Positions 1 to 18,287 are shown, counted from the first letter of the stretch. The stretch is DNA of 64,000 nucleotides from Trypanosoma brucei (GCA_000002445.1 CP000070.1:64001-128000), one strand, 5' to 3'. The notes: a model not told the origin generated them from the letters alone. Numbers and translations: made by a program.

Positions 1-1971
1 GAAAGTTATAAAATGCCAACATCCCAACACCTGTTGGTTGCGCACCGCAGCGCGAAATAGTAATTATACCAAAAATATGCTTACCTTTCCCCCCTTACGA
101 TTCCTAATTTAAGAAACAATAATTCCCCCCTCCTCCAACCTGAGTGTGCTATTAATCAAATAAAAACAACAATAACAATAACATGAACATGAACACAATG
201 GAGTTGGTGACTGGTTAAGTAACACTGAGCCGCGTTACAGCCAACTTCGAACATAACAATGTAACAAGAGGCGCCGTATGGAAAGTGCCGTTTGTTGTCT
301 GAAATTACAGCCTAAGGATTGGCGCAGCACACATTACTCATATGATAATCTCACTTTTGCAATTCAGATATTGGGAAATGCAACCTTCCGCAAACCCCAT
401 CATCACGCATTTCCATTTAAAAAGGGGTTTAAACCTGATAAAAAAAAAAAAAGAAAGCAAAGAGAAAATGTTATCCTCCTCCACCCCTGTTGTGTGGAGA
501 CTAAAAAAGCGGACGTTACTGAAAAGCCATTGTTAGTTTCGTGACCAAACACGCATGATTAGAGAACCATTTACGCACCATTACGAACCGTCTCGCTTCA
601 CCGTGCAACAATTAAAGCTGCAAAGATATGAAAAAAAAAAATGAGTTCCAGAATTGCATTGCCACGGCGACGCGATAATGCGATGAAAGATAAATGTCTA
701 TAAAAAAAATATATGACCAAATCGGTATTAAAAATTTTAAAAACAGCGTACTTCATTACATAACATAACACTGCACTACAAAGCAACCCACCACCATAAT
801 GGAGCGAATGCAAAAACACAATGCCCAGTGAAAAAAAAAACGCAAGTGGAAAGACATTCTACAACAGCGACCAAATCATGCATTAAACAAATTCCTTTCC
901 CTCCAATAAAACTCACATTCGGTTAATTACACACCTGGCGCCCACAAGTCAAAATGTGCAATGCGCTAAAGATGTTGTGACTGCAGGATTGTACATCTCA
1001 AATAACATTCTCACAAGTATTGACTCTTCCGGCAGGTCTTCCAACTGAAGGTACGAATAATCAAACGCCGTCAACTCGCAACATTTAAAAGAAAATTATT
1101 TCTCTCCTTTCTTTCAGGGACTTTGAAATTGGAGGTTCTGCACAAATCCTCAATCCTCCGGCAGGTGTAAGCTCCACTTCATTTCAGTGGTCAGATACAT
1201 AACTAAATGAAAGTAAAGTATAACTAAACGACAGAGAGATTAAAGCAAAGGGGAAAACAAGTAACGACACTTACAAACAAGAAACAAGATAGTAAAATAA
1301 GTAAGTGGAAAGAAACTTAGGGAATCTAGAAGAAACATGCAGATGAAATAAAAAGAATATGGAGTCCCAAAACACATCACAACGATAAAAACTGAATACC
1401 CCATGACAATAAAAATGGAAACAATTGTGTGGAAGAAAACACTGACAAAATAAATAAAAATAAAATAACAATATCACTATTTGAAAAAAAAAAAGAATCA
1501 AGGGCAAAACGAGTCAGATAAAATAGCAGATGGGTATAGCCGCTATTTGAACACTTTCACAATAAATCCATCAACAAACGATGGGTAAGATGCGGTGTCT
1601 CAACAATGCAGCGTCTGCACACAGAAATCTCCAGTGTCATGTGCCCACCCGAATGTTTAAAGACGCCACACCAATAGGATAGCATTTAAAAAACAATAAT
1701 AACAGAAAAGATAAATATGTGGGAGACGTATGGTTTAAAAAAATGAGTAAAAAGACTTTTTTGTAGCACTGGTGCGGTACGTAAAAATTTAGTATACCAT
1801 TGAATTAAATAAGAATATAATAATGAAACGACCAGCGAAGAAAGCATAGGGGTGAGAAACGCCGTAAGTGGCCCCTCCCGTTGCAGTAGCGCCCTGTAAA
1901 CACGTGTTTAGCTAACGCCTAACTTCGACCTGTCGACACGGTAAGAGGATTAGGGAAACAGTTGACAGCTT

Positions 1972-3120
1972 TTAAAAATGTGCGGCAGCACTGTGAGAAA
2001 GTGCTGCAAGAAGGATCAGTAATGTGTATCCTCCTATAGATTCTGCATAGCTGCCGTCATTACCAACTTCTGCTTCCTCACCCTCATCGTCACCCAATTC
2101 CTGCACATGATCATCGTCAGAAATTTCCACTTTTCCTTCAGGATCCTTCTTCGGTACTTCCTCAACTTCCGTTCTTTCCGTCTTTTCCTTGTCCTCTGGA
2201 ACCTCCACGTTTCCTTCAGGATCCTTCTTCGGTACTTCCTCAACTTCCGTTCTTTCCGTCTTTTCCTTGTCCTCTGGAACCTCCACGTTTCCTTCAGGAT
2301 CCTTCTTCGGTACTTCCTCAACTTCCGTTCTTTCCGTCTTTTCCTTGTCCTCTGGAACCTCCACGTTTCCCTCAAATTCCTCCCTCGAAATCTCTTGAAC
2401 ATCCGCTTTTTCCGTCTCTGCCGTCCTTTCGGCTTCCTCAGCTGCCTTGTGTGCGTTGCTTTCAGCTGCCCTTGCTGCAACTCTTGCTTCGCTGGCACGC
2501 CGCACAGCAGCCTCTAATTGATCATATTCCGCCCTGAGATCAGCCATACCATCCGTCAAGATTTTGCAGATATCGCCAGTGAAGAACTCACACCCAAATT
2601 CCACAGCCTTTTTCAGCACCCAGGAGTTAACTCCTCTATTTGGGAGACTGCAGCCTCTCGCAATTCGTCTTGCAGTACTGGCGGCACTATTGTCCTCTGC
2701 AACACTTTTCAGATAATCATCAACCGGAGCGGTCTTTCCGGCTGCGAGCAGTGGGGCACGGGCCGCGTATTGCTCCACATCCGACAGGGCCGTCTTGGCG
2801 GCATTCTCCGCGCTCTCTGCTTCCTTTAGGGCAGCGCGAGCGCGTCCGACGGCCTCCTCCACCTTGGGAGTACTCGAAAAGGCATCCTCCGCTCGTCTCA
2901 CGGCATCTTGGCAACCTTCTCTCGCTTTAGAGGCATCCGAGACATTCGCTGCCGCCAACGCTTTGAGGGCCTTCACACCGAAGGGTATTCCATGCAGCGC
3001 TTCTGAAAAGAGACATGCCGCACTTACATGGCTCACTGTGTTTTGAGACCCTTCCTCAATTATGGAGTCGGCGGTGACATACGTAAGTATAGCAAGCAAG
3101 CACAAAAAACGGGCAGTCAT
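1972..3120 (-). CDS. Ala/Glu-rich GPI-anchored surface protein, copy 1, subtype A, with 3 x 26-aa EVPEDKEKTERTEVEEVPKKDPEGNV repeats. BARP/GARP-like, tentative.
   Basis: 382-aa ORF. N-terminal signal peptide MTARFLCLLAILTYVTA|DS. Ala/Glu-rich helical middle. Acidic 78-bp repeats. C-terminus ...SYAESIGGYTLLILLAALSHSAAAHF is hydrophobic and GPI-signal-like. Confidence 0.75.
   Translation of the reverse strand: MTARFLCLLAILTYVTADSIIEEGSQNTVSHVSAACLFSEALHGIPFGVKALKALAAANVSDASKAREGCQDAVRRAEDAFSSTPKVEEAVGRARAALKEAESAENAAKTALSDVEQYAARAPLLAAGKTAPVDDYLKSVAEDNSAASTARRIARGCSLPNRGVNSWVLKKAVEFGCEFFTGDICKILTDGMADLRAEYDQLEAAVRRASEARVAARAAESNAHKAAEEAERTAETEKADVQEISREEFEGNVEVPEDKEKTERTEVEEVPKKDPEGNVEVPEDKEKTERTEVEEVPKKDPEGNVEVPEDKEKTERTEVEEVPKKDPEGKVEISDDDHVQELGDDEGEEAEVGNDGSYAESIGGYTLLILLAALSHSAAAHF
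2140..2380 (-). repeat. In-frame 78-bp tandem repeat (3 copies) inside surface gene copy 1. Copy 2 has 2 copies at about 5300-5460. Copy 5 has 1 copy at about 14840-14920. Copies 3 and 4 have none.
   Basis: Period counted directly: cttcttcggtacttcctcaacttccgttctttccgtcttttccttgtcctctggaacctccacgtttccttcaggatc is 78 nt. The protein sizes step by about 26 aa: 303, 330, 356 and 382. Confidence 0.85.
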
Positions 3121-3394
3121 GATTATCCCGAATTGCTGTAGTGGTAGTTGTTAAAATGAATGTTAAGTCTAAATGCAGGCAACAGTAGGAAAGAGTGGGT
3201 AAATGTTTGTATTAATAATTTCCCCCCTCGTGGAAAGCAGTTGTAACATGGGAGGAGGCATGGATGTTGTTCTTTTTGTGATTTTTAAAATTTTTTGTGT
3301 TCAATTTTCTGAGCATTGCTTTATTGGAAGAGATGACGGGACTTATTGCTTTTTCACAGTTGCCGTCGCTAACGGTAGTTGCGTTTCACTATGG

Positions 3395-4071
3395 TTATTC
3401 TTTCGACTGTCCCTGTTCAGCTATAAGTTCTCGAATGGCGATTGTGCTTCCAGATTTTATACTTGCAGTTTTTAATCGGGAGAGAACGCTTTCCAGTCGC
3501 TCGAAAGGATCATCACTAACTGCAGCCAGAATGCTTTTCAAATAACTCAAGTCGGTTACAAGTTGTTCTACTGCAAGGGCCGCAGCATCGTCGCTATTAA
3601 GTGGGAAACACATTGTAATGTTTTGTCAGGAAAGAACTGAAGAACGGCCTTTACAGCTTCCATCAGTCCATTCATAACTACTTGAAATCGATCATACTTC
3701 ATGATAGATTGCGAATCCTTTAAGAGGTCTTCCACGCGCTCTGCTTCTCGCCGTGCAAATGATTCCAGCACCTTAGGTTGCTCGAATATGTGTGCAAGCT
3801 CAGTTTGAGTATAAAAATTAATTTGCTCTGCAATATCGTCCCGCCTACACAAACTGTTTTTAACGTTTCTTCCGTCCTCAGCACCAACACATACCTTCGG
3901 AGGAGTAGAATCAATTTTAATACTAAGCTGCCTTACTGCCTCAAAGCAGGAAATAAGCTCAACATTCCTCTCCACACACTGCAAAATGGGAGTTAAGCAA
4001 GTGGAAAGACATTCTACAACAGCGATCAAATCATGCATTAAACAAACTCCTTTCCCTCCAATAAAACTCAC
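3395..4071 (-). pseudogene. COG7-like gene 3' fragment, 5'-truncated and carrying a ~620-bp internal deletion (unit 1).
   Basis: ORFs 3568..4071 and 3395..3613 match the C-terminal third of the 784-aa protein at 15933..18287. The deletion junction at about 3613-3620 (cacattgtaatgttttgtcagg) shifts the frame. Confidence 0.8.
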
Positions 4072-5131
4072 ATTCGGTTAATTACACACCTGGCGCCCAC
4101 AAGTCAAAATGTGCAATGCGCTAAAGATGTTGTGACTGCAGGATTGTACATCTCAAATAATATTCTCACAAGTATTGACTCTTCCGGCAGGTCTTCCAAC
4201 TGAAGGTACGAATAATCAAACGCCGTCAACTCGCAACATTTAAAGGAAAATTATTTCTCTCCTTTCCTTCAGAGACTTTGAAATTGGAGGTTCTGCACAA
4301 ATCCTCAATCCTCCGGCAGGTGTAAGCTCCACTTCATTTCAGTGGTCAGATACATAACTAAATGAAAGTAAAGTATAACTAAACGACAGAGAGATTAAAG
4401 CAAAGGGGAAAACAAGCAACGACACTTACAAACAAGAAACAAGATAGTAAAATAAGTAAGTGGAAAGAAACTTAGGGAATCTAGAAGAAACATGCAGATG
4501 AAATAAAAAGAATATGGAGTCCCAAAACACATCGCAACGATAAAAACTGAATACCCCATGACAATAAAAATGGAAACAATTGTGTGGAGGGAAGGGTTAT
4601 AAAAGAAAAAAAATAATAATAATGTTATCGTCTTTTTTTATCAAAAAAAATAAATAAATAAAAATGAAGTGAAGCAGATAAAATAGCAGATGGGTATAGC
4701 CGCTATTTGAACACTTTCACAATAAATCCATCAACAAACGATGGGTAAGATGCGGTGTCTCGACAATGCAGCGTCTGCACACAGAAATCTACAGTGTCAT
4801 GCGCCCACCCGAATGTTTAAAGACGCCACACCAATAGGATAGCATTTAAAAAACAATAATAACAGAAAAGATAAATATGTGGGAGACGTATGGTTCAAAA
4901 AAATGAGTAAAAAGACTTTTTTGTAGCACTGGTGCGGTACGTAAAAATTTAGTATACCATTGAATTAAATAAGAATATAATAATGAAACGACCAGCGAAG
5001 AAAGCATAGGGGTGAGAAACGCCGTAAGTGGCCCCTCCCGTTGCAGTAGCGCCCTGTAAACACGTGTTTAGCTAACGCCTAACTTCGACCTGTCGACACG
5101 GTAAGAGGATTAGGGAAACAGTTGACAGCTT

Positions 5132-6202
5132 TTAAAAATGTGCGGCAGCACTGTGAAAAAGTGCTGCAAGAAGGATCAGTAATGTGTATCCTCCTATAGA
5201 TTCTGCATAGCTGCCGTCATTACCAACTTCTGCTTCCTCACCCTCATCGTCACCCAATTCCTGCACATGATCATCGTCAGAAATTTCCACTTTTCCCTCA
5301 GGATCCTTCTTCGGTACTTCCTCAACTTCCGTTCTTTCCGTCTTTTCCTTGTCCTCTGGAACCTCCACGTTTCCTTCAGGATCCTTCTTCGGCACTTCCT
5401 CAACTTCCGTTCTTCCCGTCTTTTCCTTGTCCTCTGGAACCTCCACGTTTCCCTCAAATTCCTCCCTCGAAATCTCTTGAACATCCGCTTCTTCCGTCTC
5501 TGCCGTCCTTTCGGCTTCCTCAGCTGCCTTGCGTGCGTTGCTTTCAGCTGCCCTTGCTGCAACTCTTGCTTCGCCGGCACGCCGCACAGCAGCCTCTAAT
5601 TGATCATATTCCGCCCTGAGATCAACCATACGCGTCCTCGCGATCCTACATATTTCACCCATGAAAATAGCACATGCGGATTCCACAGCCTGTGTCAGCA
5701 CCCAGGAGTTAACTCCTCTATTTGGGAGACTGCAGCCTCTCGCAATTCGTCTTGCAGTACTGGCGGCACTATTGTCCTCTGCAACACTTTTCAGATAATC
5801 ATCAATCGGAGCGGTCTTTCCGGCTGCGAGCAGTGGGGCACGGGCCGCGTATTGCTCCACATCCGACAGGGCCGTCTTGGCGGCATTCTCCGCGCTCTCT
5901 GCTTCCTTTAGGGCAGCGCGAGCGCGTCCGACGGCCTCCTCCGCTTTGGGATTATTCCAAGAGGCATCCTCCGCTCGTCTCACGGCATCTTGGCAACCTT
6001 CTCTCGCTTTAGAGGCATCCGAGACATTCGCTGCCGCCAACGCTTTGAGGGCCTTCACACCGAAGGGTATTCCATGCAGCGCTTCTGAAAAGAGACATGC
6101 CGCACTTACATGACTCACTGTGTTTTGAGACCCTTCCTCAATTATGGAGTCGGCGGTGACATACGTAAGTATAGCAAGCAAGCACAAAAAACGGGCAGTC
6201 AT
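5132..6202 (-). CDS. Ala/Glu-rich GPI-anchored surface protein, copy 2, subtype A, with 2 repeats.
   Basis: 356-aa ORF, more than 90% identical to copy 1. Same signal peptide and GPI-like tail. Confidence 0.75.
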   Translation of the reverse strand: MTARFLCLLAILTYVTADSIIEEGSQNTVSHVSAACLFSEALHGIPFGVKALKALAAANVSDASKAREGCQDAVRRAEDASWNNPKAEEAVGRARAALKEAESAENAAKTALSDVEQYAARAPLLAAGKTAPIDDYLKSVAEDNSAASTARRIARGCSLPNRGVNSWVLTQAVESACAIFMGEICRIARTRMVDLRAEYDQLEAAVRRAGEARVAARAAESNARKAAEEAERTAETEEADVQEISREEFEGNVEVPEDKEKTGRTEVEEVPKKDPEGNVEVPEDKEKTERTEVEEVPKKDPEGKVEISDDDHVQELGDDEGEEAEVGNDGSYAESIGGYTLLILLAALFHSAAAHF

Positions 6203-6476
6203 GATTATCCCGAGTTGCTGTAGTGGTAGTTGTTAAAATGAATGTTAAGTCTAAATGCAGGCAACAGTAGGAAAGAGTGGGTAAATGTTTGTATTAATAA
6301 TTTCCCCCCTCGTGGAAAGCAGTTGTAACATGGGAGGAGGCATGGATGTTGTTCTTTTTGTGATTTTTAAAATTTTTTGTGTTAAATTTTCTGAGCATTG
6401 CTTTATTGGAAGAGATGACGGGACTTATTGCTTTTTCACAGTTGCCGTCGCTAACGGTAGTTGCGTTTCACTATGG

Positions 6477-7775
6477 TTATTCTTTCGACTGTCCCTGTTC
6501 AGCTATAAGTTCTCGAATGGCGATTGTGCTTCCAGATTTTATACTTGCAGTTTTTAATCGGGAGAGAACGCTTTCCAGTCGCTCGAAAGGATCATCACTA
6601 ACTGCAGCCAGAATGCTTTTCAAATAACTCAAGTCGGTTACAAGTTGTTCTACTGCAAGGGCCGCAGCATCGTCGCTATTAAGTGGGAAACACATTATAA
6701 TGTTGGCCACTTTAGACTCAATAAAGTCCGATACCGCCGTGCGCACAATATCATCTAACCAATATTCCGTTACTTCTTCGAGTAACTCTTCAATGCCGTC
6801 GAACCGTCCCTCGCTGCCACCCCGTAATGATTCGAGTGCTAATGGTATTTCCACAATGGCTTCACCAAAGCCGCGCACCATTTCACTAGGCGCAAGATGT
6901 AATGGCGTGTGTAGCACAGAATTGGAAATCACAGCGCTTCCTCCGTTACTCGACTGTAACCTCCAGAGTGGTTGCGACTCATAACCGTCAGCTGTGGCAA
7001 TAACGGGAGCAATGACAGTTTGTTTTATAGCCTGCTGGCATTCAGCAGCACAAATCACCAGTACATTGTTTAGTGGCCGCCACAGCTGTTCACTTAGTTG
7101 ACTATTGATAGACTCAACCTCAGTTGGACGTAGTCGGCGCACCTCCGCAGATTTGACATAGTCTTCGCACATTTTCTGCGTAGACAGAAGCAATTGTTGA
7201 ACAATTTTGCGTAACGCTGAAAGGCGCTCTAACAACTCCGTCTGGTGCGTGTGAGGTGCGGGTTGAAAAAATGTCAGCGACTGGACGAGTGCCACCTTCC
7301 ATCGGCTCACACAGATCGGTAATGTTTTGTCAGGAAAGAACTGAAGAACGGCCTTTACAGCTTCCATCAGTCCATTCATAACTACTTGAAATCGATCATA
7401 CTTCATGATAGATTGCGAATCCTTTAAGAGGTCTTCCACGCGCTCTGCTTCTCGCCGTGCAAATGATTCCAGCACCTTAGGTTGCTCGAATATGTGTGCA
7501 AGCTCAGTTTGAGTATAAAAATTAATTTGCTCTGCAATATCGTCCCGCCTACACAAACTGTTTTTAACGTTTCTTCCGTCCTCAGCACCAACACATACCT
7601 TCGGAGGAGTAGAATCAATTTTAATACTAAGCTGCCTTACTGCCTCAAAGCAGGAAATAAGCTCAACATTCCTCTCCACACACTGCAAAATGGGAGTTAA
7701 GCAAGTGGAAAGACATTCTACAACAGCGACCAAATCATGCATTAAACAAATTCCTTTCCCTCCAATAAAACTCAC
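6477..7775 (-). pseudogene. COG7-like gene 3' fragment, 5'-truncated but otherwise the intact C-terminal 432 codons (unit 2).
   Basis: The 432-aa ORF is near-identical to residues ~353-784 of the full gene. It has no N-terminal half and begins at the array junction (~7723). Confidence 0.8.
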
Positions 7776-8834
7776 ATTCGGTTAATTACACACCTGGCGC
7801 CCACAAGTCAAAATGTGCAATGCGCTAAAGATGTTGTGACTGCAGGATTGTACATCTCAAATAATATTCTCACAAGTATTGACTCTTCCGGCAGGTTTTC
7901 CAACTGAAGGTACGAATAATCAAACGCCGTCAACTCGCAACATTTAAAAGAAAATTATTTCTCTCCTTTCTTTCAGGGACTTTGAAATTGGAGGTTCTGC
8001 ACAAATCCTCAATCCTCCGGCAGGTGTAAGCTCCACTTCATTTCAGTGGTCAGATACATAACTAAATGAAAGTAAAGTATAACTAAACGACAGAGAGATT
8101 AAAGCAAAGGGGAAAACAAGCAACGACACTTACAAACAAGAAACAAGATAGTAAAATAAGTAAGTGGAAAGAAACTTAGGGAATCTAGAAGAAACATGCA
8201 GATGAAATAAAAAGAATATGGAGTCCCAAAACACATCGCAACGATAAAAACTGAATACCCCATGACAATAAAAATGGAAACAATTGTGTGGAGGGAAGGG
8301 TTATAAAAGAAAAAAAATAATAATAATGTTATCGTCTTTTTTTATCAAAAAAAATAAATAAATAAAAATGAAGTGAAGCAGATAAAATAGCAGATGGGTA
8401 TAGCCGCTATTTGAACACTTTCACAATAAATCCATCAACAAACGATGGGTAAGATGCGGTGTCTCAACAATGCAGCGTCTGCACACAGAAATCTCCAGTG
8501 TCATGTGCCCACCCGAATGTTTAAAGACGCCACACCAATAGGATAGCATTTAAAAAACAATAATAACAGAAAAGATAAATATGTGGGAGACGTATGGTTT
8601 AAAAAAATGAGTAAAAAGACTTTTTTGTAGCACTGGTGCGGTACGTAAAAATTTAGTATACCATTGAATTAAATAAGAATATAATAATGAAACGACCAGC
8701 GAAGAAAGCATAGGGGTGAGAAACGCCGTAAGTGGCCCCTCCCGTTGCAGTAGCGCCCTGTAACACGTGTTTAGCTAACGCCTAACTTCGACCTGTCGAC
8801 ACGGTAAGAGGATTAGGGAAACAGTTGACAGCTT

Positions 8835-9746
8835 TTAAAAATGTGCGGCAGCACTGTGAAAAAGTGCTGCAAGAAGGATCAGTAATGTGTATCCTCCTAT
8901 AGATTCTGCATAGCTGCCGTCATTACCAACTTCTGCTTCCTCACCCTCATCGTCACCCAATTCCTGCACATGATCATCGTCAGAAATTTCCACTTTTCCT
9001 TCAGGATCCTTCTTCGGCACTTCCTTAACTTTCGCTTTTTCCGTCTCTGCCGTCCTTTCGGCTTCCTCAGCTGCCTTGTGTGCGTTGCTTTCAGCTGCCC
9101 TTGCTGCAACTCTTGCTTCGCTGGCACGCCGCACAGCAGCCTCTAATTGATCATATTCCGCCCTGAGATCAGCCATACGCGCCCTCGCAGTGTTGCAGAT
9201 AACTGTCATGAAAACGGCACAACCGGATTCCACAGCCTGTGTCAGTACCCAGGAACTAACTTCAAGTGGGGCATTGCAGTCTCTCGCAATTCGTCTTGCA
9301 GTACTGGCGGCACTATTGTCCTCTGCAACACTTTTCAGATAATCATCAACCAGAGCTACATTGTTGTTCGCGAGCGCTGAGGCATTGGCAGCGTATTGCT
9401 CCACATCCGACAGGGCCGTCTTGGCGGCATTCTCCGCGCTCTCTGCTTCCTTTAGGGCAGCGCGAGCGCGTCCGACGGCCTCCTCCACCTTGGGAGTACT
9501 CGAAAAGGCATCCTCCGCTCGTCTCACGGCATCTTGGCAACCTTCTCTCGCTTTAGAGGCATCCGAGACATTCGCTGCCGCCGACGTCTTGAACACTTTG
9601 ACACTGTTGGGTACTCCATGCAGCGCTTCCGACATGAGACATGCCGCACTTACATGACTCACTGTGTCTTGAAACCCTTCCCCACCTTTGGGACCGGTGG
9701 TGACATACATAAGTATAGCAAGCAAGCACAAAAAACGGGCAGTCAT
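8835..9746 (-). CDS. Ala/Glu-rich GPI-anchored surface protein, copy 3, subtype B, no 78-bp repeat.
   Basis: 303-aa ORF. The N-terminal domain is divergent (TGPKGGEGFQDTV..., GVPNSVKVFKTS, ANASALANNNVALV). Signal peptide and C-terminal half match subtype A. Confidence 0.75.
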   Translation of the reverse strand: MTARFLCLLAILMYVTTGPKGGEGFQDTVSHVSAACLMSEALHGVPNSVKVFKTSAAANVSDASKAREGCQDAVRRAEDAFSSTPKVEEAVGRARAALKEAESAENAAKTALSDVEQYAANASALANNNVALVDDYLKSVAEDNSAASTARRIARDCNAPLEVSSWVLTQAVESGCAVFMTVICNTARARMADLRAEYDQLEAAVRRASEARVAARAAESNAHKAAEEAERTAETEKAKVKEVPKKDPEGKVEISDDDHVQELGDDEGEEAEVGNDGSYAESIGGYTLLILLAALFHSAAAHF

Positions 9747-10020
9747 GATTATCCCGAATTGCTGTAGTGGTAGTTGTTAAAATGAATGTTAAGTCTAAAT
9801 GCAGGCAACAGTAGGAAAGAGTGGGTAAATGTTTGTATTAATAATTTCCCCCCTCGTGGAAAGCAGTTGTAACATGGGAGGAGGCATGGATGTTGTTCTT
9901 TTTGTGATTTTTAAAATTTTTTGTGTTCAATTTTCTGAGCATTGCTTTATTGGAAGAGATGACGGGACTTATTGCTTTTTCACAGTTGCCGTCGCTAACG
10001 GTAGTTGCGTTTCACTATGG

Positions 10021-10693
10021 TTATTCTTTCGACTGTCCCTGTTCAGCTATAAGTTCTCGAATGGCGATTGTGCTTCCAGATTTTATACTTGCACTTTTTA
10101 ATCGGGAGAGAACGCTTTCCAGTCGCTCGAAAGGATCATCACTAACTGCAGCCAGAATGCTTTTCAAATAACTCAAGTCGGTTACAAAATGACAGCGACT
10201 GGACGAGTGCCACCTTCCATCGGCTCACACAGATCGGTAATGTTTTGTCAGGAAAGAACTGAAGAACGGCCTTTACAGCTTCCATCAGTCCATTCATAAC
10301 TACTTGAAATCGATCATACTTCATGATAGATTGCGAATCCTTTAAGAGGTCTTCCACGCGCTCTGCTTCTCGCCGTGCAAATGATTTCAGCACCTTAGGT
10401 TGCTCGAATATGTGTGCAAGCTCAGTTTGAGTATAAAAATTAATTTGCTCTGCAATATCGTCCCGCCTACACAAACTGTTTTTAACGTTTCTTCCGTCCT
10501 CAGCACCAACACATACCTTCGGAGGAGTAGAATCAATTTTAATACTAAGCTGCCTTACTGCCTCAAAGCAGGAAATAAGCTCAACATTCCTCTCCACACA
10601 CTGCAAAATGGGAGTTAAGCAAGTGGAAAGACATTCTACAACAGCGACCAAATCATGCATTAAACAAATTCCTTTCCCTCCAATAAAACTCAC
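10021..10693 (-). pseudogene. COG7-like 3' fragment, 5'-truncated with a ~610-bp internal deletion (unit 3).
   Basis: ORF 10142..10693 ends in the novel tail ...SLSFCNRLELFEKHSGCS. The deletion junction near 10188 is ggttacaa|aatgacagcg. The unit-2 copy is continuous across this point. Confidence 0.75.
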
Positions 10694-11753
10694 ATTCGGT
10701 TAATTACACACCTGGCGCCCACAAGTCAAAATGTGCAATGCGCTAAAGATGTTGTGACTGCAGGATTGTACATCTCAAATAATATTCTCACAAGTATTGA
10801 CTCTTCCGGCAGGTCTTCCAACTGAAGGTACGAATAATCAAACGCCGTCAACTCGCAACATTTAAAAGAAAATTATTTCTCTCCTTTCTTTCAGGGACTT
10901 TGAAATTGGAGGTTCTGCACAAATCCTCAATCCTCCGGCAGGTGTAAGCTCCACTTCATTTCAGTGGTCAGATACATAACTAAATGAAAGTAAAGTATAA
11001 CTAAACGACAGAGAGATTAAAGCAAAGGGGAAAACAAGCAACGACACTTACAAACAAGAAACAAGATAGTAAAATAAGTAAGTGGAAAGAAACTTAGGGA
11101 ATCTAGAAGAAACATGCAGATGAAATAAAAAGAATATGGAGTCCCAAAACACATCGCAACGATAAAAACTGAATACCCCATGACAATAAAAATGGAAACA
11201 ATTGTGTGGAGGGAAGGGTTATAAAAGAAAAAAAATAATAATAATGTTATCGTCTTTTTTTATCAAAAAAAATAAATAAATAAAAATGAAGTGAAGCAGA
11301 TAAAATAGCAGATGGGTATAGCCGCTATTTGAACACTTTCACAATAAATCCATCAACAAACGATGGGTAAGATGCGGTGTCTCAACAATGCAGCGTCTGC
11401 ACACAGAAATCTCCAGTGTCATGTGCCCACCCGAATGTTTAAAGACGCCACACCAATAGGATAGCATTTAAAAAACAATAATAACAGAAAAGATAAATAT
11501 GTGGGAGACGTATGGTTTAAAAAAATGAGTAAAAAGACTTTTTTGTAGCACTGGTGCGGTACGTAAAAATTTAGTATACCATTGAATTAAATAAGAATAT
11601 AATAATGAAACGACCAGCGAAGAAAGCATAGGGGTGAGAAACGCCGTAAGTGGCCCCTCCCGTTGCAGTAGCGCCCTGTAAACACGTGTTTAGCTAACGC
11701 CTAACTTCGACCTGTCGACACGGTAAGAGGATTAGGGAAACAGTTGACAGCTT

Positions 11754-12665
11754 TTAAAAATGTGCGGCAGCACTGTGAGAAAGTGCTGCAAGAAGGATCA
11801 GTAATGTGTATCCTCCTATAGATTCTGCATAGCTGCCGTCATTACCAACTTCTGCTTCCTCACCCTCATCGTCACCCAATTCCTGCACATGATCATCGTC
11901 AGAAATTTCCACTTTTCCTTCAGGATCCTTCTTCGGCACTTCCTTAACTTTCGCTTTTTCCGTCTCTGCCGTCCTTTCGGCTTCCTCAGCTGCCTTGTGT
12001 GCGTTGCTTTCAGCTGCCCTTGCTGCAACTCTTGCTTCGCTGGCACGCCGCACAGCAGCCTCTAATTGATCATATTCCGCCCTGAGATCAGCCATACGCG
12101 TCCTCGCAGTGTTGCAGATAACTGTCATGAAAACGGCACAACCGGATTCCACAGCCTGTGTCAGTACCCAGGAACTAACTTCAAGTGGGGCATTGCAGTC
12201 TCTCGCAATTCGTCTTGCAGTACTGGCGGCACTATTGTCCTCTGCAACACTTTTCAGATAATCATCAACCAGAGCTACATTGTTGTTCGCGAGCGCTGAG
12301 GCATTGGCAGCGTATTGCTCCACATCCGACAGGGCCGTCTTGGCGGCATTCTCCGCGCTCTCTGCTTCCTTTAGGGCAGCGCGAGCGCGTCCGACGGCCT
12401 CCTCCACCTTGGGAGTACTCGAAAAGGCATCCTCCGCTCGTCTCACGGCATCTTGGCAACCTTCTCTCGCTTTAGAGGCATCCAAGACATTCGCTGCCGC
12501 CGACGTCTTGAACACTTTGACACTGTTGGGTACTCCATGCAGCGCTTCCGACATGAGACATGCCGCACTTACATGACTCACTGTGTCTTGAAACCCTTCC
12601 CCACCTTTGGGACCGGTGGTGACATACGTAAGTATAGCAAGCAAGCACAAAAAACGGGCAGTCAT
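11754..12665 (-). CDS. Ala/Glu-rich GPI-anchored surface protein, copy 4, subtype B, nearly identical to copy 3.
   Basis: 303-aa ORF. Only a few substitutions against copy 3 (M13T, S61L, A188T, F296S). Confidence 0.75.
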   Translation of the reverse strand: MTARFLCLLAILTYVTTGPKGGEGFQDTVSHVSAACLMSEALHGVPNSVKVFKTSAAANVLDASKAREGCQDAVRRAEDAFSSTPKVEEAVGRARAALKEAESAENAAKTALSDVEQYAANASALANNNVALVDDYLKSVAEDNSAASTARRIARDCNAPLEVSSWVLTQAVESGCAVFMTVICNTARTRMADLRAEYDQLEAAVRRASEARVAARAAESNAHKAAEEAERTAETEKAKVKEVPKKDPEGKVEISDDDHVQELGDDEGEEAEVGNDGSYAESIGGYTLLILLAALSHSAAAHF

Positions 12666-12939
12666 GATTATCCCGAATTGCTGTAGTGGTAGTTGTTAAA
12701 ATGAATGTTAAGTCTAAATGCAGGCAACAGTAGGAAAGAGTGGGTAAATGTTTGTATTAATAATTTCCCCCCTCGTGGAAAGCAGTTGTAACATGGGAGG
12801 AGGCATGGATGTTGTTCTTTTTGTGATTTTTAAAATTTTTTGTGTTCAATTTTCTGAGCATTGCTTTATTGGAAGAGATGACGGGACTTATTGCTTTTTC
12901 ACAGTTGCCGTCGCTAACGGTAGTTGCGTTTCACTATGG

Positions 12940-13612
12940 TTATTCTTTCGACTGTCCCTGTTCAGCTATAAGTTCTCGAATGGCGATTGTGCTTCCAGAT
13001 TTTATACTTGCAGTTTTTAATCGGGAGAGAACGCTTTCCAGTCGCTCGAAAGGATCATCACTAACTGCAGCCAGAATGCTTTTCAAATAACTCAAGTCGG
13101 TTACAAAATGACAGCGACTGGACGAGTGCCACCTTCCATCGGCTCACACAGATCGGTAATGTTTTGTCAGGAAAGAACTGAAGAACGGCCTTTACAGCTT
13201 CCATCAGTCCATTCATAACTACTTGAAATCGATCATACTTCATGATAGATTGCGAATCCTTTAAGAGGTCTTCCACGCGCTCTGCTTCTCGCCGTGCAAA
13301 TGATTCCAGCACCTTAGGTTGCTCGAATATGTGTGCAAGCTCAGTTTGAGTATAAAAATTAATTTGCTCTGCAATATCGTCCCGCCTACACAAACTGTTT
13401 TTAACGTTTCTTCCGTCCTCAGCACCAACACATACCTTCGGAGGAGTAGAATCAATTTTAATACTAAGCTGCCTTACTGCCTCAAAGCAGGAAATAAGCT
13501 CAACATTCCTCTCCACACACTGCAAAATGGGAGTTAAGCAAGTGGAAAGACATTCTACAACAGCGACCAAATCATGCATTAAACAAATTCCTTTCCCTCC
13601 AATAAAACTCAC
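12940..13612 (-). pseudogene. COG7-like 3' fragment with the same internal deletion as unit 3 (unit 4).
   Basis: ORF 13061..13612 is near-identical to 10142..10693. The deletion junction is near 13107. Confidence 0.75.
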
Positions 13613-14665
13613 ATTCGGTTAATTACACACCTGGCGCCCACAAGTCAAAATGTGCAATGCGCTAAAGATGTTGTGACTGCAGGATTGTACATCTCAAATA
13701 ATATTCTCACAAGTATTGACTCTTCCGGCAGGTTTTCCAACTGAAGGTACGAATAATCAAACGCCGTCAACTCGCAACATTTAAAAGAAAATTATTTCTC
13801 TCCTTTCTTTCAGGGACTTTGAAATTGGAGGTTCTGCACAAATCCTCAATCCTCCGGCAGGTGTAAGCTCCACTTCATTTCAGTGGTCAGATACATAACT
13901 AAATGAAAGTAAAGTATAACTAAACGACAGAGAGATTAAAGCAAAGGGGAAAACAAGCAACGACACTTACAAACAAGAAACAAGATAGTAAAATAAGTAA
14001 GTGGAAAGAAACTTAGGGAATCTAGAAGAAACATGCAGATGAAATAAAAAGAATATGGAGTCCCAAAACACATCGCAACGATAAAAACTGAATACCCCAT
14101 GACAATAAAAATGGAAACAATTGTGTGGAAGAAAACACTGACAAAATAAATAAAAATAAAATAACAATATCACTATTTGAAAAAAAAAAGAATCAAGGGC
14201 AAAACGAGTCAGATAAAATAGCAGATGGGTATAGCCGCTATTTGAACACTTTCACAATAAATCCATCAACAAACGATGGGTAAGATGCGGTGTCTCGACA
14301 ATGCAGCGTCTGCACACAGAAATCTACAGTGTCATGCGCCCACCCGAATGTTTAAAGACGCCACACCAATAGGATAGCATTTAAAAAACAATAATAACAG
14401 AAAAGATAAATATGTGGGAGACGTATGGTTCAAAAAATGAGTAAAAAGACTTTTTTGTAGCACTGGTGCGGTACGTAAAAATTTAGTATACCATTGAATT
14501 AAATAAGAATATAATAATGAAACGACCAGCGAAGAAAGCATAGGGGTGAGAAACGCCGTAAGTGGCCCCTCCCGTTGCAGTAGCGCCCTGTAAACACGTG
14601 TTTAGCTAACGCCTAACTTCGACCTGTCGACACGGTAAGAGGATTAGGGAAACAGTTGACAGCTT

Positions 14666-15658
14666 TTAAAAATGTGCGGCAGCACTGTGAAAAAGTGCTG
14701 CAAGAAGGATCAGTAATGTGTATCCTCCTATAGATTCTGCATAGCTGCCGTCATTACCAACTTCTGCTTCCTCACCCTCATCGTCACCCAATTCCTGCAC
14801 ATGATCATCGTCAGAAATTTCCACTTTTCCTTCAGGATCCTTCTTCGGCACTTCCTCAACTTCCGTTCTTCCCGTCTTTTCCTTGTCCTCTGGAACCTCC
14901 ACGTTTCCCTCAAATTCCTCCCTCGAAATCTCTTGAACATCCGCTTCTTCCGTCTCTGCCGTCCTTTCGGCTTCCTCAGCTGCCTTGCGTGCGTTGCTTT
15001 CAGCTGCCCTTGCTGCAACTCTTGCTTCGCTGGCACGCCGCACAGCAGCCTCTAATTGATCATATTCCGCCCTGAGATCAACCATACGCGTCCTCGCGAT
15101 CCTACATATTTCACCCATGAAAATAGCACATGCGGATTCCACAGCCTGTGTCAGCACCCAGGAGTTAACTCCTCTATTTGGGAGACTGCAGCCTCTCGCA
15201 ATTCGTCTTGCAGTACTGGCGGCACTATTGTCCTCTGCAACACTTTTCAGATAATCATCAATCGGAGCGGTCTTTCCGGCTGCGAGCAGTGGGGCACGGG
15301 CCGCGTATTGCTCCACATCCGACAGGGCCGTCTTGGCGGCATTCTCCGCGCTCTCTGCTTCCTTTAGGGCAGCGCGAGCGCGTCCGACGGCCTCCTCCAC
15401 CTTGGGAGTACTCGAAAAGGCATCCTCCGCTCGTCTCACGGCATCTTGGCAACCTTCTCTCGCTTTAGAGGCATCCGAGACATTCGCTGCCGCCGACGCT
15501 TTGAGGGCCTTCACACCGAAGGGTATTCCATGCAGCGCTTCTGAAAAGAGACATGCCGCACTTACATGACTCACTGTGTTTTGAGACCCTTCCTCAATTA
15601 TGGAGTCGGCGGTGACATACGTAAGTATAGCAAGCAAGCACAAAAAACGGGCAGTCAT
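14666..15658 (-). CDS. Ala/Glu-rich GPI-anchored surface protein, copy 5, subtype A, with 1 repeat.
   Basis: 330-aa ORF. It is the closest copy to the intact COG7-like gene. Confidence 0.75.
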   Translation of the reverse strand: MTARFLCLLAILTYVTADSIIEEGSQNTVSHVSAACLFSEALHGIPFGVKALKASAAANVSDASKAREGCQDAVRRAEDAFSSTPKVEEAVGRARAALKEAESAENAAKTALSDVEQYAARAPLLAAGKTAPIDDYLKSVAEDNSAASTARRIARGCSLPNRGVNSWVLTQAVESACAIFMGEICRIARTRMVDLRAEYDQLEAAVRRASEARVAARAAESNARKAAEEAERTAETEEADVQEISREEFEGNVEVPEDKEKTGRTEVEEVPKKDPEGKVEISDDDHVQELGDDEGEEAEVGNDGSYAESIGGYTLLILLAALFHSAAAHF

Positions 15659-15932: not shown

Positions 15933-18287
15933 TTATTCTTTCGACTGTCCCTGTTCAGCTATAAGTTCTCGAATGGCGATTGTGCTTCCAGATTTTATAC
16001 TTGCAGTTTTTAATCGGGAGAGAACGCTTTCCAGTCGCTCGAAAGGATCATCACTAACTGCAGCCAGAATGCTTTTCAAATAACTCAAGTCGGTTACAAG
16101 TTGTTCTACTGCAAGGGCCGCAGCATCGTCGCTATTAAGTGGGAAACACATTATAATGTTGGCCACTTTAGACTCAATAAAGTCCGATACCGCCGTGCGC
16201 ACAATATCATCTAACCAATATTCCGTTACTTCTTCGAGTAACTCTTCAATGCCGTCGAACCGTCCCTCGCTGCCACCCCGTAATGATTCGAGTGCTAATG
16301 GTATTTCCACAATGGCTTCACCAAAGCCGCGCACCATTTCACTAGGCGCAAGATGTAATGGCGTGTGTAGCACAGAATTGGAAATCACAGCGCTTCCTCC
16401 GTTACTCGACTGTAACCTCCAGAGTGGTTGCGACTCATAACCGTCAGCTGTGGCAATAACGGGAGCAATGACAGTTTGTTTTATAGCCTGCTGGCATTCA
16501 GCAGCACAAATCACCAGTACATTGTTTAGTGGCCGCCACAGCTGTTCACTTAGTTGACTATTGATAGACTCAACCTCAGTTGGACGTAGTCGGCGCACCT
16601 CCGCAGATTTGACATAGTCTTCGCACATTTTCTGCGTAGACAGAAGCAATTGTTGAACAATTTTGCGTAACGCTGAAAGGCGCTCTAACAACTCCGTCTG
16701 GTGCGTGTGAGGTGCGGGTTGAAAAAATGTCAGCGACTGGACGAGTGCCACCTTCCATCGGCTCACACAGATCGGTAATGTTTTGTCAGGAAAGAACTGA
16801 AGAACGGCCTTTACAGCTTCCATCAGTCCATTCATAACTACTTGAAATCGATCATACTTCATGATAGATTGCGAATCCTTTAAGAGGTCTTCCACGCGCT
16901 CTGCTTCTCGCCGTGCAAATGATTCCAGCACCTTAGGTTGCTCGAATATGTGTGCAAGCTCAGTTTGAGTATAAAAATTAATTTGCTCTGCAATATCGTC
17001 CCGCCTACACAAACTGTTTTTAACGTTTCTTCCGTCCTCAGCACCAACACATACCTTCGGAGGAGTAGAATCAATTTTAATACTAAGCTGCCTTACTGCC
17101 TCAAAGCAGGAAATAAGCTCAGGATTCCTCTCCACACACTGCAAAATGGGAGTTAAGCAAGTGGAAAGACATTCTACAATTTCATCTGCCATTAAACGCA
17201 AAACTTTCACGGGTTGCGACTCGGGCCCTTCAGAAATCTCCGCATTATCCGTGATATCGCGATTACCGCTGTAAACATGTGCCAACTGCATTAAATAGTC
17301 TAACTGGTCGGTGAGTGCACATCCTAAGGAAGGTATAAGTTGCGTTTTCAGCACCTCTGCCGCACGCACGGGAGAAATTGGATGCCTTGAAACTTTTGAC
17401 TCAGAGTGATGTAGCAGACAAAACACTTTTTCCTTTTCGGAGGCTATGCTCTCTGCGGAAAATTGCTGAAGAACAGCATCAGCCCTCCCAATAGTATCAA
17501 GTACCTTGAGGAGATGAGCAGCACGGTCTACTACTCTTCGGCGTAACTGTTCCATACATTCGGTCTCCACCACGCGTTGCAGGAGTTGTTCATGCCTCTC
17601 AACTGCTTCCAGCTGCTTTCCACCAAACGTTACCTCTAATTTCTGAAGGTCTGCGAGGTTTTGCCGCACCTCCCTAATAGACACCGCCACTAAGTCTATG
17701 TCCACCTCTGACACCGAAACACGAAGTTTCTCCATAATATCGTCCAATTGCTTCATATTGCTATCAACTTCCGATGCCTTCTTAAGTGTTTCAGAGCAGC
17801 GCATGAGCTTCTTCTGCGTTTTCTTCAGATCATTGAGCTGTGCAACGTATGGTTTGGAGATCATTTCTACCGCTGGTTGCGCCTCCTCTCTTATTTTGCA
17901 AAGTGCCTGTTGAAGTTGTTGAACTTCCGTAACCATACGGCCGACTTCCAGCCCAGTTCGGGGGAGCCGAACGAGCGCCTGTGTGATAGTGTCGTCAACA
18001 GAACTTGCAACCTCCTGTGAGTATGAATGCAATCTGCCGTACAAATTTGTGATGCGCCCTTCCAACTCCGCATCGGTTTCTACCCCATCAGGATTCGCCG
18101 AAGAAATACATTGCAAAGAGGTATTTATCCACTGAATAACGTCAAAGTTCTCACTTGCTAATTCATCTAACGAGAACGCGAACGACGCGGGATCAGTGGA
18201 AGGTGAAGTACCAATCGAAGGGTTTGGATTTGGTACGTCCTGCATTTTTGGGCTTAAAGAAGAAGGAAAGTTAAGGCAGCAGTGCAC
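15933..18287 (-). CDS. Conserved oligomeric Golgi complex subunit 7-like protein. This is the intact parent of the array fragments.
   Basis: 784-aa ORF. The N-terminal FSLDELASENFDVIQWINTSL resembles the COG7 N-terminal motif (LADDFDVKEWINAAF, recalled from memory). The protein is long and helical. A polypyrimidine tract on the coding strand lies just upstream of the ATG (revcomp of aaagaagaaggaaag at about 18250-18265). Confidence 0.5.
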   Translation of the reverse strand: MHCCLNFPSSLSPKMQDVPNPNPSIGTSPSTDPASFAFSLDELASENFDVIQWINTSLQCISSANPDGVETDAELEGRITNLYGRLHSYSQEVASSVDDTITQALVRLPRTGLEVGRMVTEVQQLQQALCKIREEAQPAVEMISKPYVAQLNDLKKTQKKLMRCSETLKKASEVDSNMKQLDDIMEKLRVSVSEVDIDLVAVSIREVRQNLADLQKLEVTFGGKQLEAVERHEQLLQRVVETECMEQLRRRVVDRAAHLLKVLDTIGRADAVLQQFSAESIASEKEKVFCLLHHSESKVSRHPISPVRAAEVLKTQLIPSLGCALTDQLDYLMQLAHVYSGNRDITDNAEISEGPESQPVKVLRLMADEIVECLSTCLTPILQCVERNPELISCFEAVRQLSIKIDSTPPKVCVGAEDGRNVKNSLCRRDDIAEQINFYTQTELAHIFEQPKVLESFARREAERVEDLLKDSQSIMKYDRFQVVMNGLMEAVKAVLQFFPDKTLPICVSRWKVALVQSLTFFQPAPHTHQTELLERLSALRKIVQQLLLSTQKMCEDYVKSAEVRRLRPTEVESINSQLSEQLWRPLNNVLVICAAECQQAIKQTVIAPVIATADGYESQPLWRLQSSNGGSAVISNSVLHTPLHLAPSEMVRGFGEAIVEIPLALESLRGGSEGRFDGIEELLEEVTEYWLDDIVRTAVSDFIESKVANIIMCFPLNSDDAAALAVEQLVTDLSYLKSILAAVSDDPFERLESVLSRLKTASIKSGSTIAIRELIAEQGQSKE

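What the first reader, a model, noticed from the sequence alone, without database searches (positions are those of the whole stretch)
1972..15658. Two N-terminal subtypes and 0-3 copies of a 26-aa acidic repeat among five otherwise conserved surface genes
Copies 1, 2 and 5 form subtype A (ADSIIEEGSQNTV, GIPFGVKALKA, ARAPLLAAGKTAP). Copies 3 and 4 form subtype B (TGPKGGEGFQDTV, GVPNSVKVFKTS, ANASALANNNVALV). The signal peptide, the Ala/Glu-rich core and the GPI-like tail are almost invariant. Repeat number of EGNVEVPEDKEKTERTEVEEVPKKDP is 3, 2, 0, 0 and 1. Conserved termini with a diversified exposed N-domain and a variable membrane-proximal repeat suggest mosaic gene conversion or diversifying selection on a surface coat. 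The overall features resemble the T. brucei BARP and T. congolense GARP families. I recall those only by properties and not by sequence, so the identity is tentative.
Basis: partly seen in the sequence, partly recalled or inferred. Interest (0 to 1): 0.65.

Follow-up and report, generated by a model that had tools for sequence, protein, structure and literature searches.

The report
Known trypanosome MISP surface-gene array
The five genes are the already published MISP surface-protein family of Trypanosoma brucei (chromosome 7, Tb927.7.360-440), whose two subtypes, 26-residue repeats and GPI anchoring were described in 2023, so the finding is correct but not new.

Summary
Five minus-strand ORFs sit at the stated coordinates, 84-94% identical. 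They fall into two N-terminal subtypes and carry 3, 2, 0, 0 and 1 copies of a 26-aa (78-nt) acidic repeat.

All five proteins are exact matches to T. b. brucei TREU927 XP_845660/662/664/666/668. This is the MISP family (Fam50 subfamily iv, also called SGE1; genes Tb927.7.360-440). Copy 1 is about 98% identical to the MISP360 crystal structure 5VTL.

Casas-Sanchez et al. 2023 (PMC10089363) already describe the array, the MISP-A/MISP-B split, the 26-residue repeats, the signal peptide, the GPI omega site and salivary-gland/metacyclic surface expression.

They are neither BARP nor GARP.

What I add is minor:
- Each repeat unit carries a truncated COG7 fragment.
- Synonymous divergence is confined to three short cassettes at the inferred membrane-distal end (dS 0.25-0.45, against about 0 elsewhere).
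- These cassettes and the repeat number re-assort between paralogues and between subspecies, which supports mosaic gene conversion.
- Pooled dN/dS in the cassettes is about 1, so positive selection is not shown.
- The closest non-self structure is the T. brucei factor H receptor.

The parts
1972..3120 (-). MISP360 (Tb927.7.360, XP_845660), 382 aa, MISP-A, 3 repeats
   Evidence: ORF. Exact match to the TREU927 protein. About 98% identical to PDB 5VTL over aa 26-234. Pfam GARP E=6e-51.
5132..6202 (-). MISP380 (XP_845662), 356 aa, MISP-A, 2 repeats; private SWNNPKA patch at aa 81-87
8835..9746 (-). MISP400 (XP_845664), 303 aa, MISP-B, no repeat; extra N121 sequon
11754..12665 (-). MISP420 (XP_845666), 303 aa, MISP-B, no repeat; lacks the N59 sequon (NVL)
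14666..15658 (-). MISP440 (XP_845668), 330 aa, MISP-A, 1 repeat; lies next to the intact COG7 gene
2140..2373 (-). Three 78-nt / 26-aa acidic repeats of MISP360 (aa 250-327)
   Evidence: Tandem Repeats Finder: 2126-2374, period 78, 3.2 copies, 98% match; alignment. Predicted disordered, pLDDT about 30.
5300..5455 (-). Two 78-nt repeats of MISP380 (aa 250-301)
14834..14911 (-). Single 78-nt repeat of MISP440 (aa 250-275)
2956..3072 (-). Variable cassette 1 (aa 17-55, mature N-terminus and first half of helix 1), shown for copy 1; same codons in the other copies
   Evidence: A versus B: dS 0.25-0.31, dN 0.24-0.25. 24 consecutive sites with the A|B partition.
2722..2760 (-). Variable cassette 3 (aa 121-133, distal part of helix 2), shown for copy 1
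   Evidence: dS about 0.23, dN 0.82-0.93
2542..2655 (-). Variable cassette 4 (aa 156-193, apical loop and start of helix 3), shown for copy 1; three types
   Evidence: dS 0.42-0.45 between types; alignment
3568..4038 (-). Truncated COG7 fragment (XP_845661, 156 aa; Tb927.7.370) with an internal deletion of about 614 bp
   Evidence: Exact match, named COG7 by UniRef. BLAST segments 3615-4019 = 16775-17179 and 2282-3622 = 14820-16160.
6477..7742 (-). Long COG7 3' fragment (XP_845663, 421 aa; Tb927.7.390)
10142..10660 (-). Truncated COG7 fragment (XP_845665, 172 aa; Tb927.7.410) with a deletion of about 617 bp
13061..13579 (-). Truncated COG7 fragment (172 aa, AAZ12108; Tb927.7.430) with the same deletion as the previous unit
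15933..18245 (-). Intact COG7 gene (XP_845669, 770 aa), source of the fragments; the duplicated segment starts at about 17179
   Evidence: Pfam COG7; exact match; junction alignment
842..866 (-). Left end of the array: 22-nt identity (TGTAGAATGTCTTTCCACTTGC) with the COG7 interior, i.e. the duplication junction
   Evidence: BLAST repeat boundaries at 842 and 17179

Best explanation
The region is the MISP (Metacyclic Invariant Surface Protein; Fam50 subfamily iv; SGE1) tandem array of Trypanosoma brucei brucei TREU927 chromosome 7, genes Tb927.7.360/380/400/420/440. Each gene encodes four parts. First, a cleaved signal peptide (aa 1-16 or 17). Second, a three-helix-bundle ectodomain of about 210 aa. 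Third, an acidic, disordered stalk whose length (41, 68, 94 or 120 aa) is set by 0-3 copies of a 26-aa repeat. Fourth, a C-terminal GPI-addition signal (omega Ser, 25 residues from the end). According to the literature the proteins coat salivary-gland epimastigotes and metacyclic forms alongside BARP and mVSG, and the stalk length is proposed to decide whether the head sits below or above the mVSG coat. Their ligand is unknown, and the genes are dispensable in the tsetse fly. Shown here: the array arose by tandem duplication of a 2.9-3.7 kb unit, joined at a 22-nt identity between the COG7 interior and the MISP downstream flank, so a COG7 3' fragment travels with each copy. Inferred: concerted evolution (gene conversion or unequal crossing-over) homogenises the flanks and most of the coding sequence. 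Three short cassettes, placed by helix register at the membrane-distal end of the bundle, keep old, divergent haplotypes that re-assort among paralogues and subspecies. Unequal exchange between 78-nt units changes the repeat number.
For: Identity. All five proteins are exact matches to TREU927 XP_845660/662/664/666/668 on the 2.2-Mb contig. PDB 5VTL 'Tb427.07.360 metacyclic invariant surface protein' matches at E=1e-123. Pfam GARP is hit above its cutoff. The neighbours are COG7 and the prenyltransferase beta subunit, and the same context is found in T. b. gambiense. Literature. PMC10089363 describes the five paralogues, MISP-A/B, the 26-residue motifs, the signal peptide, the GPI omega site, the expression pattern, the structure and the knockout. 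PMC3605285 defines Fam50 subfamily iv. Anatomy. N- and C-terminal hydrophobic segments are present with no internal one, and the tail carries net charge -10 to -29. The AlphaFold2 model has helices 23-79, 85-142 and 183-251, with the tail at pLDDT about 30. The model superposes on 5VTL with TM 0.94. Array history. Repeat boundaries and the junction alignment. Mosaicism. Substitutions are clustered: synonymous differences are 16.6 per 65.5 sites inside the cassettes against 1.0 per 107.5 outside, p=2e-7. Partitions are incompatible and the PHI-type permutation gives 16/2000. Cassettes swap type as blocks, synonymous sites included, in the equiperdum 381-aa and gambiense 337-aa genes, and an all-B equiperdum gene carries one repeat.
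Against: Nothing contradicts the identification. For the mosaic part, the recombinant genes in other subspecies come from assemblies of near-identical tandem copies and could be consensus chimeras; the two-copy gambiense array is the most suspect. No dedicated GPI or signal-peptide predictor was run here. The placement of the variable cassettes at the distal end rests on helix register in a model whose apex (aa 150-190) has only pLDDT 54-56, together with the paper's statement about the pocket; it is not based on coordinates I could measure. The biological function remains unknown, and the knockout has no tsetse phenotype.
Confidence: 0.93

Rival explanations
1. The genes are members of the BARP (T. 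brucei) or GARP (T. congolense) families proper, as the first reader tentatively proposed.
For: Pfam GARP domain hit. Fold match to GARP 2Y44 with TM 0.85. Ala/Glu-rich, GPI-type architecture.
Against: The proteins are exact matches to chromosome 7 genes that the literature treats as a separate Fam50 clade, subfamily iv or MISP. BARP is a 14-gene chromosome 9 array whose proteins mostly lack the C-terminal domain. GARP is reached only at E=2.6 by a sequence profile and at 26% identity in structural alignment.
Confidence: 0.03
2. The N-terminal subtypes are the product of positive, immune-driven diversifying selection on an exposed coat, that is, antigenic diversification, rather than retention and shuffling of old haplotypes.
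For: Variation is concentrated in the inferred membrane-distal region. The paper reports that 51% of non-conserved residues lie near the apical pocket. The patch at aa 121-133 has dN/dS 3.5-3.9.
Against: Pooled over the cassettes, pN is 0.260 and pS is 0.253 (p=1.0). Synonymous divergence is as elevated as non-synonymous, so the signal is old haplotypes rather than excess amino-acid change. The patch-3 result rests on 13 codons (uncorrected p=0.04). The same cassette haplotypes are shared across subspecies, and the proteins are described as invariant.
Confidence: 0.15
3. The apparent five-copy array with differing repeat numbers is an assembly artefact of fewer real genes.
For: Flanks are above 99% identical, which makes such arrays hard to assemble. 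T. b. gambiense shows only two copies.
Against: Each copy has private substitutions, and there are distinct COG7-fragment deletions. The published RT-PCR resolves products differing by 78 bp, and the knockout removed ten alleles. The equiperdum chromosome-scale contig also carries several copies within the 21-kb stretch read: three called GARP-domain genes plus four short ORFs, 164-172 aa, of COG7-fragment length.
Confidence: 0.02

Closest known systems
T. brucei MISP family (Tb927.7.360-440; Fam50 subfamily iv; SGE1), Casas-Sanchez et al. 2023, PDB 5VTL
   Same: Everything: exact protein sequences, the five-gene chromosome 7 array, the A/B sub-families, 0-3 repeats of 26 residues, the signal peptide, the GPI signal and the three-helix bundle.
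   Different: Nothing essential. Minor additions and corrections follow. The 'unrelated hypothetical genes' between the copies are COG7 fragments. A divergent segment of about 90 nt exists in the 3' flank, despite the stated >99.7% conservation. TREU927 MISP420 lacks the Asn59 sequon. The A/B cassettes and the repeat number are uncoupled in other subspecies.
T. brucei factor H receptor (Tb927.5.4020, Fam50 subfamily iii), PDB 6XZ6
   Same: It is the closest non-self solved structure (Foldseek E=8e-8, TM 0.85 over 209 columns). It is a GPI-anchored three-helix bundle of about 90 A. Its ligand pocket is formed by the membrane-distal ends of helices 2 and 3, which is the region where MISP cassettes 3 and 4 lie by helix register.
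   Different: Only 22% identity. FHR is single-copy, has no repeat stalk, and has a known ligand (factor H domain 5). No ligand is known for MISP.
T. congolense GARP (PDB 2Y44) and T. brucei BARP
   Same: Same Pfam family (PF16731) and same Fam50 superfamily; Ala/Glu-rich three-helix bundle; GPI-anchored; expressed in insect stages.
   Different: GARP is 26% identical in structural alignment. BARP is a chromosome 9 array, expressed mainly in epimastigotes, and mostly lacks the C-terminal tail. Neither has the 26-aa repeat stalk.
Haptoglobin-haemoglobin receptor and ISG65 (trypanosome three-helix-bundle receptors)
   Same: Same general fold (E=2e-6 to 7e-3); they bind ligands at the membrane-distal part.
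   Different: Much lower structural similarity (TM 0.3-0.7); different life-cycle stage; ISG65 is transmembrane.

Membership tests
MISP (Fam50 subfamily iv, Tb927.7.360-440) | Sequence identity to the named genes | tested here: met
   All five ORFs are exact matches to TREU927 XP_845660/662/664/666/668. Copy 1 is about 98% identical to 5VTL.
MISP (Fam50 subfamily iv, Tb927.7.360-440) | Five-gene tandem array on chromosome 7, with copies separated by one hypothetical gene each | tested here: met
   four intervening ORFs, three of them matched to XP_845661/663/665 and the fourth listed as AAZ12108 (the even/odd accession series implies XP_845667). Flanked by COG7 and prenyltransferase beta.
MISP (Fam50 subfamily iv, Tb927.7.360-440) | Three-helix-bundle N-terminal domain | tested here: met
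   The AlphaFold2 model superposes on 5VTL with TM 0.94 and rmsd 1.7 A.
MISP (Fam50 subfamily iv, Tb927.7.360-440) | C-terminal 26-residue repeats: 1-3 in MISP-A, none in MISP-B | tested here: met
   3, 2, 0, 0 and 1 repeats. However, an all-B equiperdum gene carries one repeat.
MISP (Fam50 subfamily iv, Tb927.7.360-440) | N-terminal signal peptide and C-terminal GPI omega site | tested here: met
   Rule-based check only. The hydrophobic core at aa 6-15 has Kyte-Doolittle score 2.6-2.9. The C-terminus reads small residue Ser, then spacer YAESIGG, then a hydrophobic tail (score 2.6-2.9). There is no internal transmembrane segment. Dedicated predictors were run by the paper, not here.
MISP (Fam50 subfamily iv, Tb927.7.360-440) | Surface expression on salivary-gland epimastigotes and metacyclic forms | not testable with these tools
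   Literature only (PMC10089363; PMC3605285).
Pfam GARP PF16731 / Fam50 superfamily | HMM match above the gathering score | tested here: met
   173.2 and 152.7 bits against a cutoff of 27.4, covering positions 2-193 of the 193-position model.
BARP (T. brucei, chromosome 9) | Member of the Tb927.9.155xx-156xx array; mature protein essentially without a C-terminal domain | tested here: not met
   The locus is chromosome 7. The tails are 41-120 aa long.
GARP sensu stricto (T. congolense) | Close sequence similarity to GARP (2Y44) | tested here: not met
   The profile search reaches 2Y44 only at E=2.6. The structural alignment gives 26% identity and TM 0.85. The fold is homologous but the clade and species differ.
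Factor H receptor-like ligand-binding receptors | Binding of a host ligand in a membrane-distal pocket | not testable with these tools
   Only fold similarity was shown. An apical pocket is reported for MISP360.

The most novel reading that the evidence does not exclude
The MISP-A/MISP-B dichotomy may be an oversimplification. The head would instead be built from at least three or four independently re-assorting cassettes, plus a separately variable stalk. These cassettes lie where the nearest functional relative, the factor H receptor, forms its ligand pocket. On this reading the array is a small combinatorial set of receptors or adhesins for host or vector ligands (for example complement regulators at the bite site). 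Gene conversion would homogenise the scaffold while selection preserves alternative binding-site haplotypes. A divergent T-rich segment in the 3' flank might contribute to the unexplained differential expression of the paralogues.
Probability: 0.2. Interest if true: 0.45.

Novelty: already known. Interest (0 to 1): 0.1.

Why it matters
MISP proteins are candidate transmission-blocking antigens on the infective metacyclic form of the sleeping-sickness parasite, so the family matters. The residual value of this analysis has three parts. The variable residues behave as shuffled old haplotypes, not as fast-evolving sites. The array's origin can be read from the COG7 fragments. The factor H receptor is the closest structural relative, which suggests a ligand pull-down experiment.

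Tried and rejected
- The database homologue search with copy 1 returned only five clusters, all MISP of the T. brucei group. The word pre-filter did not reach BARP, GARP or CESP, so it gave no direct test of distance to BARP.
- Sequence and profile searches of the PDB reach GARP (2Y44) and the factor H receptor (6XZ6) only at non-significant E-values of 2.6 and 6.5. The relationship had to come from Pfam and the fold search.
- The first exact look-up of the intervening ORFs failed because the ORF listing starts them at bacterial GTG codons. Re-querying from the first ATG found them.
- The AlphaFold2 model, built from only five near-identical sequences, has mean pLDDT 60 and an uncertain apex (54-56).
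- The extra ORFs over the repeats (2034-2498, 2107-2517, 5194-5580) are alternative-frame or antisense shadows of the 78-nt repeat, not genes.
- Positive selection was considered as the explanation for the subtypes and rejected as unproven.
- Assembly artefact was considered and rejected.
- Not used: the search of protein representatives, Rfam, and the phage, plasmid and E. coli collections. None is relevant to a trypanosome nuclear locus.
Full report
**1. Observation**

| Copy | Window coordinates | Length |
|---|---|---|
| 1 | 1972-3120 | 382 aa |
| 2 | 5132-6202 | 356 aa |
| 3 | 8835-9746 | 303 aa |
| 4 | 11754-12665 | 303 aa |
| 5 | 14666-15658 | 330 aa |

The protein alignment shows 84-94% identity to copy 1. 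It shows the two N-terminal types (copies 1, 2 and 5 against copies 3 and 4). The signal peptide, the Ala/Glu-rich core and the C-terminal 64 residues are nearly invariant.

The 26-aa unit EGNVEVPEDKEKT[E/G]RTEVEEVPKKDP occurs 3, 2, 0, 0 and 1 times. Tandem Repeats Finder finds a 78-nt period, with 3.2 copies at 98% match in copy 1 and 2.2 copies in copy 2.

Residues 170-193 come in three types, not two. Copy 2 has a private patch at residues 81-87.

**2. Identity**

- Copy 1 matches PDB 5VTL, 'Tb427.07.360 putative uncharacterized metacyclic invariant surface protein from Trypanosoma brucei', at E=1e-123 and about 98% identity over residues 26-234.
- Copies 1 and 3, one of each subtype, were scanned against Pfam. 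Both hit Pfam GARP PF16731 far above the gathering score.
- All five proteins are exact matches to T. b. brucei TREU927 XP_845660, 662, 664, 666 and 668, on the 2,205,233-bp contig.
- The neighbouring ORFs are COG7 and the prenyltransferase beta subunit. The same gene order is seen in T. b. gambiense.

The window is therefore TREU927 chromosome 7, and the genes are Tb927.7.360, 380, 400, 420 and 440.

**3. What is already published**

Casas-Sanchez et al. 2023 (PMC10089363) name this family MISP. They describe:

- the five paralogues and their map;
- the sub-families MISP-A (one to three 26-residue motifs) and MISP-B (none);
- signal peptides (Met1 to Ala/Thr17), a GPI omega site and N-glycosylation sites;
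- the 5VTL three-helix bundle with an apical pocket surrounded by non-conserved residues;
- an unstructured C-terminal stalk whose length may lift the head above the mVSG coat;
- expression on salivary-gland and metacyclic forms;
- a non-protective vaccination trial, and a CRISPR knockout with no tsetse phenotype.

Jackson et al. 2013 (PMC3605285) had already placed these genes in Fam50 as subfamily 'iv'. That family also contains BARP, GARP, CESP and Tb927.5.4020.

**4. Anatomy checked here**

- Hydropathy shows an N-terminal hydrophobic core and a C-terminal hydrophobic tail. The tail is preceded by Ser and a short polar spacer (GNDGS|YAESIGG-YTLLILLAAL...). There is no internal transmembrane segment.
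- The stalk between the bundle and the omega site is 41, 68, 94 or 120 residues long, with net charge -10 to -29.
- An AlphaFold2 model of copy 1 has helices 23-79, 85-142 and 183-251. It has a less confident head at residues 143-182 and a tail at pLDDT about 30.
- The model superposes on 5VTL with TM 0.94.
- The next-best matches are the T. brucei factor H receptor 6XZ6 (E=8e-8, TM 0.85, 22% identity) and GARP 2Y44 (TM 0.85, 26% identity). The haptoglobin-haemoglobin receptors and ISG65 follow.
- The phrases 'factor H' and 'FHR' do not occur in the MISP paper's main text. In that receptor the ligand pocket is made by the splayed membrane-distal ends of helices 2 and 3 (PMC7067766).

**5. Array architecture**

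Self-BLAST and repeat finding show five tandem units of 2.9-3.7 kb, spanning window positions about 842 to 17179.

Each unit holds a MISP gene, about 1.1 kb of downstream flank, and a 3' fragment of COG7. From their first ATG, the intervening ORFs are exact matches to TREU927 proteins: XP_845661, XP_845663 and XP_845665, plus a fourth listed as AAZ12108. UniRef labels them COG7. The MISP paper calls them unrelated hypothetical genes.

The junction is a 22-nt identity, TGTAGAATGTCTTTCCACTTGC. It is shared by the COG7 interior and the flank at the left end of the array. This is consistent with duplication by exchange at a short homology.

Units 3 and 4 share a COG7 deletion of about 617 bp. Unit 1 has a different deletion of about 614 bp. 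In both cases the flanking BLAST segments overlap by 8 nt.

**6. Pattern of divergence**

Along the aligned units, substitutions are strongly clustered. Between subtypes A and B:

| Region (aa) | dS |
|---|---|
| 17-55 | 0.25-0.31 |
| 121-133 | about 0.23 |
| 156-193 | 0.42-0.45 |
| 56-120 | 0.02-0.04 |
| 134-155 and 194-239 | 0 |

Synonymous differences are 16.6 per 65.5 sites inside the cassettes, against 1.0 per 107.5 sites outside (Fisher p=2e-7). Within the cassettes pN is 0.260 and pS is 0.253 (p=1.0). Only the 13-codon cassette at residues 121-133 shows dN/dS of 3.5-3.9, with uncorrected p=0.04.

The signal is therefore old haplotypes embedded in a homogenised background. It is not demonstrable positive selection.

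By helix register, all three cassettes fall in the membrane-distal half of the bundle. This is an inference, and it agrees with the paper's statement about residues near the pocket.

**7. Mosaicism**

Informative sites fall into mutually incompatible partitions: {400,420}, {380,440} and {380,400,420}, each against the remaining copies. They occur in contiguous runs. A PHI-type permutation gives 16 of 2000 shuffles at or below the observed value.

The relatives from other subspecies recombine the cassettes as blocks, synonymous markers included:

| Gene | aa 17-54 | aa 81-87 | aa 119-165/168 | aa 170-193 | Repeats |
|---|---|---|---|---|---|
| T. b. equiperdum, 381 aa | A | common (non-380) type | B (119-165) | 360 type (170-191) | 3 |
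| T. b. gambiense, 337 aa | B | 380 type | A (119-168) | 380/440 type (176-193) | 1 |
| T. b. equiperdum, 329 aa | B | common (non-380) type | B | B | 1 |

The Lister 427 protein in 5VTL carries Val51 and Asn121, as in type B.

The caveat is that assemblies of near-identical tandem copies can produce chimeric consensus sequences. The two-copy gambiense array is the most suspect.

**8. Comparison and verdict**

Membership in MISP and in the Pfam GARP / Fam50 superfamily is met on every feature I could test. Membership in BARP, or in GARP in the strict sense, is not met.

Novelty: already known. The added observations are small refinements:

- the COG7-fragment origin of the intervening genes;
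- the duplication junction;
- the confinement of synonymous divergence to cassettes;
- the uncoupling of cassettes and repeat number across subspecies;
- a divergent 3' flank segment;
- the factor H receptor as nearest structural relative.

Interest is low.

Noticed in passing
window 3568-4038, 6477-7742, 10142-10660, 13061-13579 (minus strand): The ORFs between the MISP genes (Tb927.7.370/390/410/430), which the MISP paper calls 'unrelated hypothetical' genes, are 3' fragments of the adjacent intact COG7 gene (15933-18245). They are nearly identical in DNA to it. Two independent internal deletions of about 615 bp are present: one shared by units 3 and 4, another in unit 1. In each case the flanking BLAST segments overlap by 8 nt.
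   Followed up: yes
window 842-866 and about 17158-17179: A 22-nt identity (TGTAGAATGTCTTTCCACTTGC) between the COG7 interior and the flank downstream of the last MISP gene marks the boundary of the tandem unit. It is the likely site of the founding unequal exchange.
   Followed up: partly
window 1433-1514, 4588-4674, 8292-8378, 11210-11296, 14129-14209: A sharply bounded, T-rich segment of about 90 nt, 457-545 nt downstream of each MISP stop codon, exists in two very different versions: {360,440} against {380,400,420}, with 32 substitutions plus indels. This partition is incompatible with the coding-region partitions. It also conflicts with the published statement of >99.7% conservation of UTRs and intergenic sequence. 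It could bear on polyadenylation or on the differential expression of the paralogues. Whether it lies inside the 3' UTR is unknown.
   Followed up: partly
window 11754-12665 (aa 59-61): TREU927 MISP420 reads NVL instead of NVS, so it lacks the Asn59 N-glycosylation sequon that the paper says all isoforms share. It keeps the Asn121 sequon.
   Followed up: partly
L001 1174-2163, 7125-7994, 10001-11146; L002 10001-11014: MISP genes of T. b. equiperdum and T. b. gambiense combine A and B cassettes and repeat numbers differently from TREU927, including a B-type head with one repeat. The gambiense 337-aa product also runs 7 residues (KSCQLFP) past the usual C-terminus, and the equiperdum 289-aa product has an aberrant N-terminus. 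Assembly or annotation artefacts are not excluded.
   Followed up: partly
model of window 1972-3120 compared with the PDB: The closest non-self solved structure is the T. brucei factor H receptor (6XZ6, Tb927.5.4020), slightly ahead of GARP. 'Factor H' and 'FHR' do not occur in the MISP paper's main text.
   Followed up: partly
window 2034-2498, 2107-2517, 5194-5580: Long alternative-frame and antisense ORFs over the 78-nt repeats are shadows of the repeat, not genes.
   Followed up: yes
window 18554-64000: The rest of the window is a single minus-strand run of ordinary genes, typical of a trypanosome polycistronic unit. It includes prenyltransferase beta, a MORN/FYVE protein, a DnaJ protein, a WD40 protein, a GTPase and several ORFs with no Pfam hit.
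   Followed up: partly
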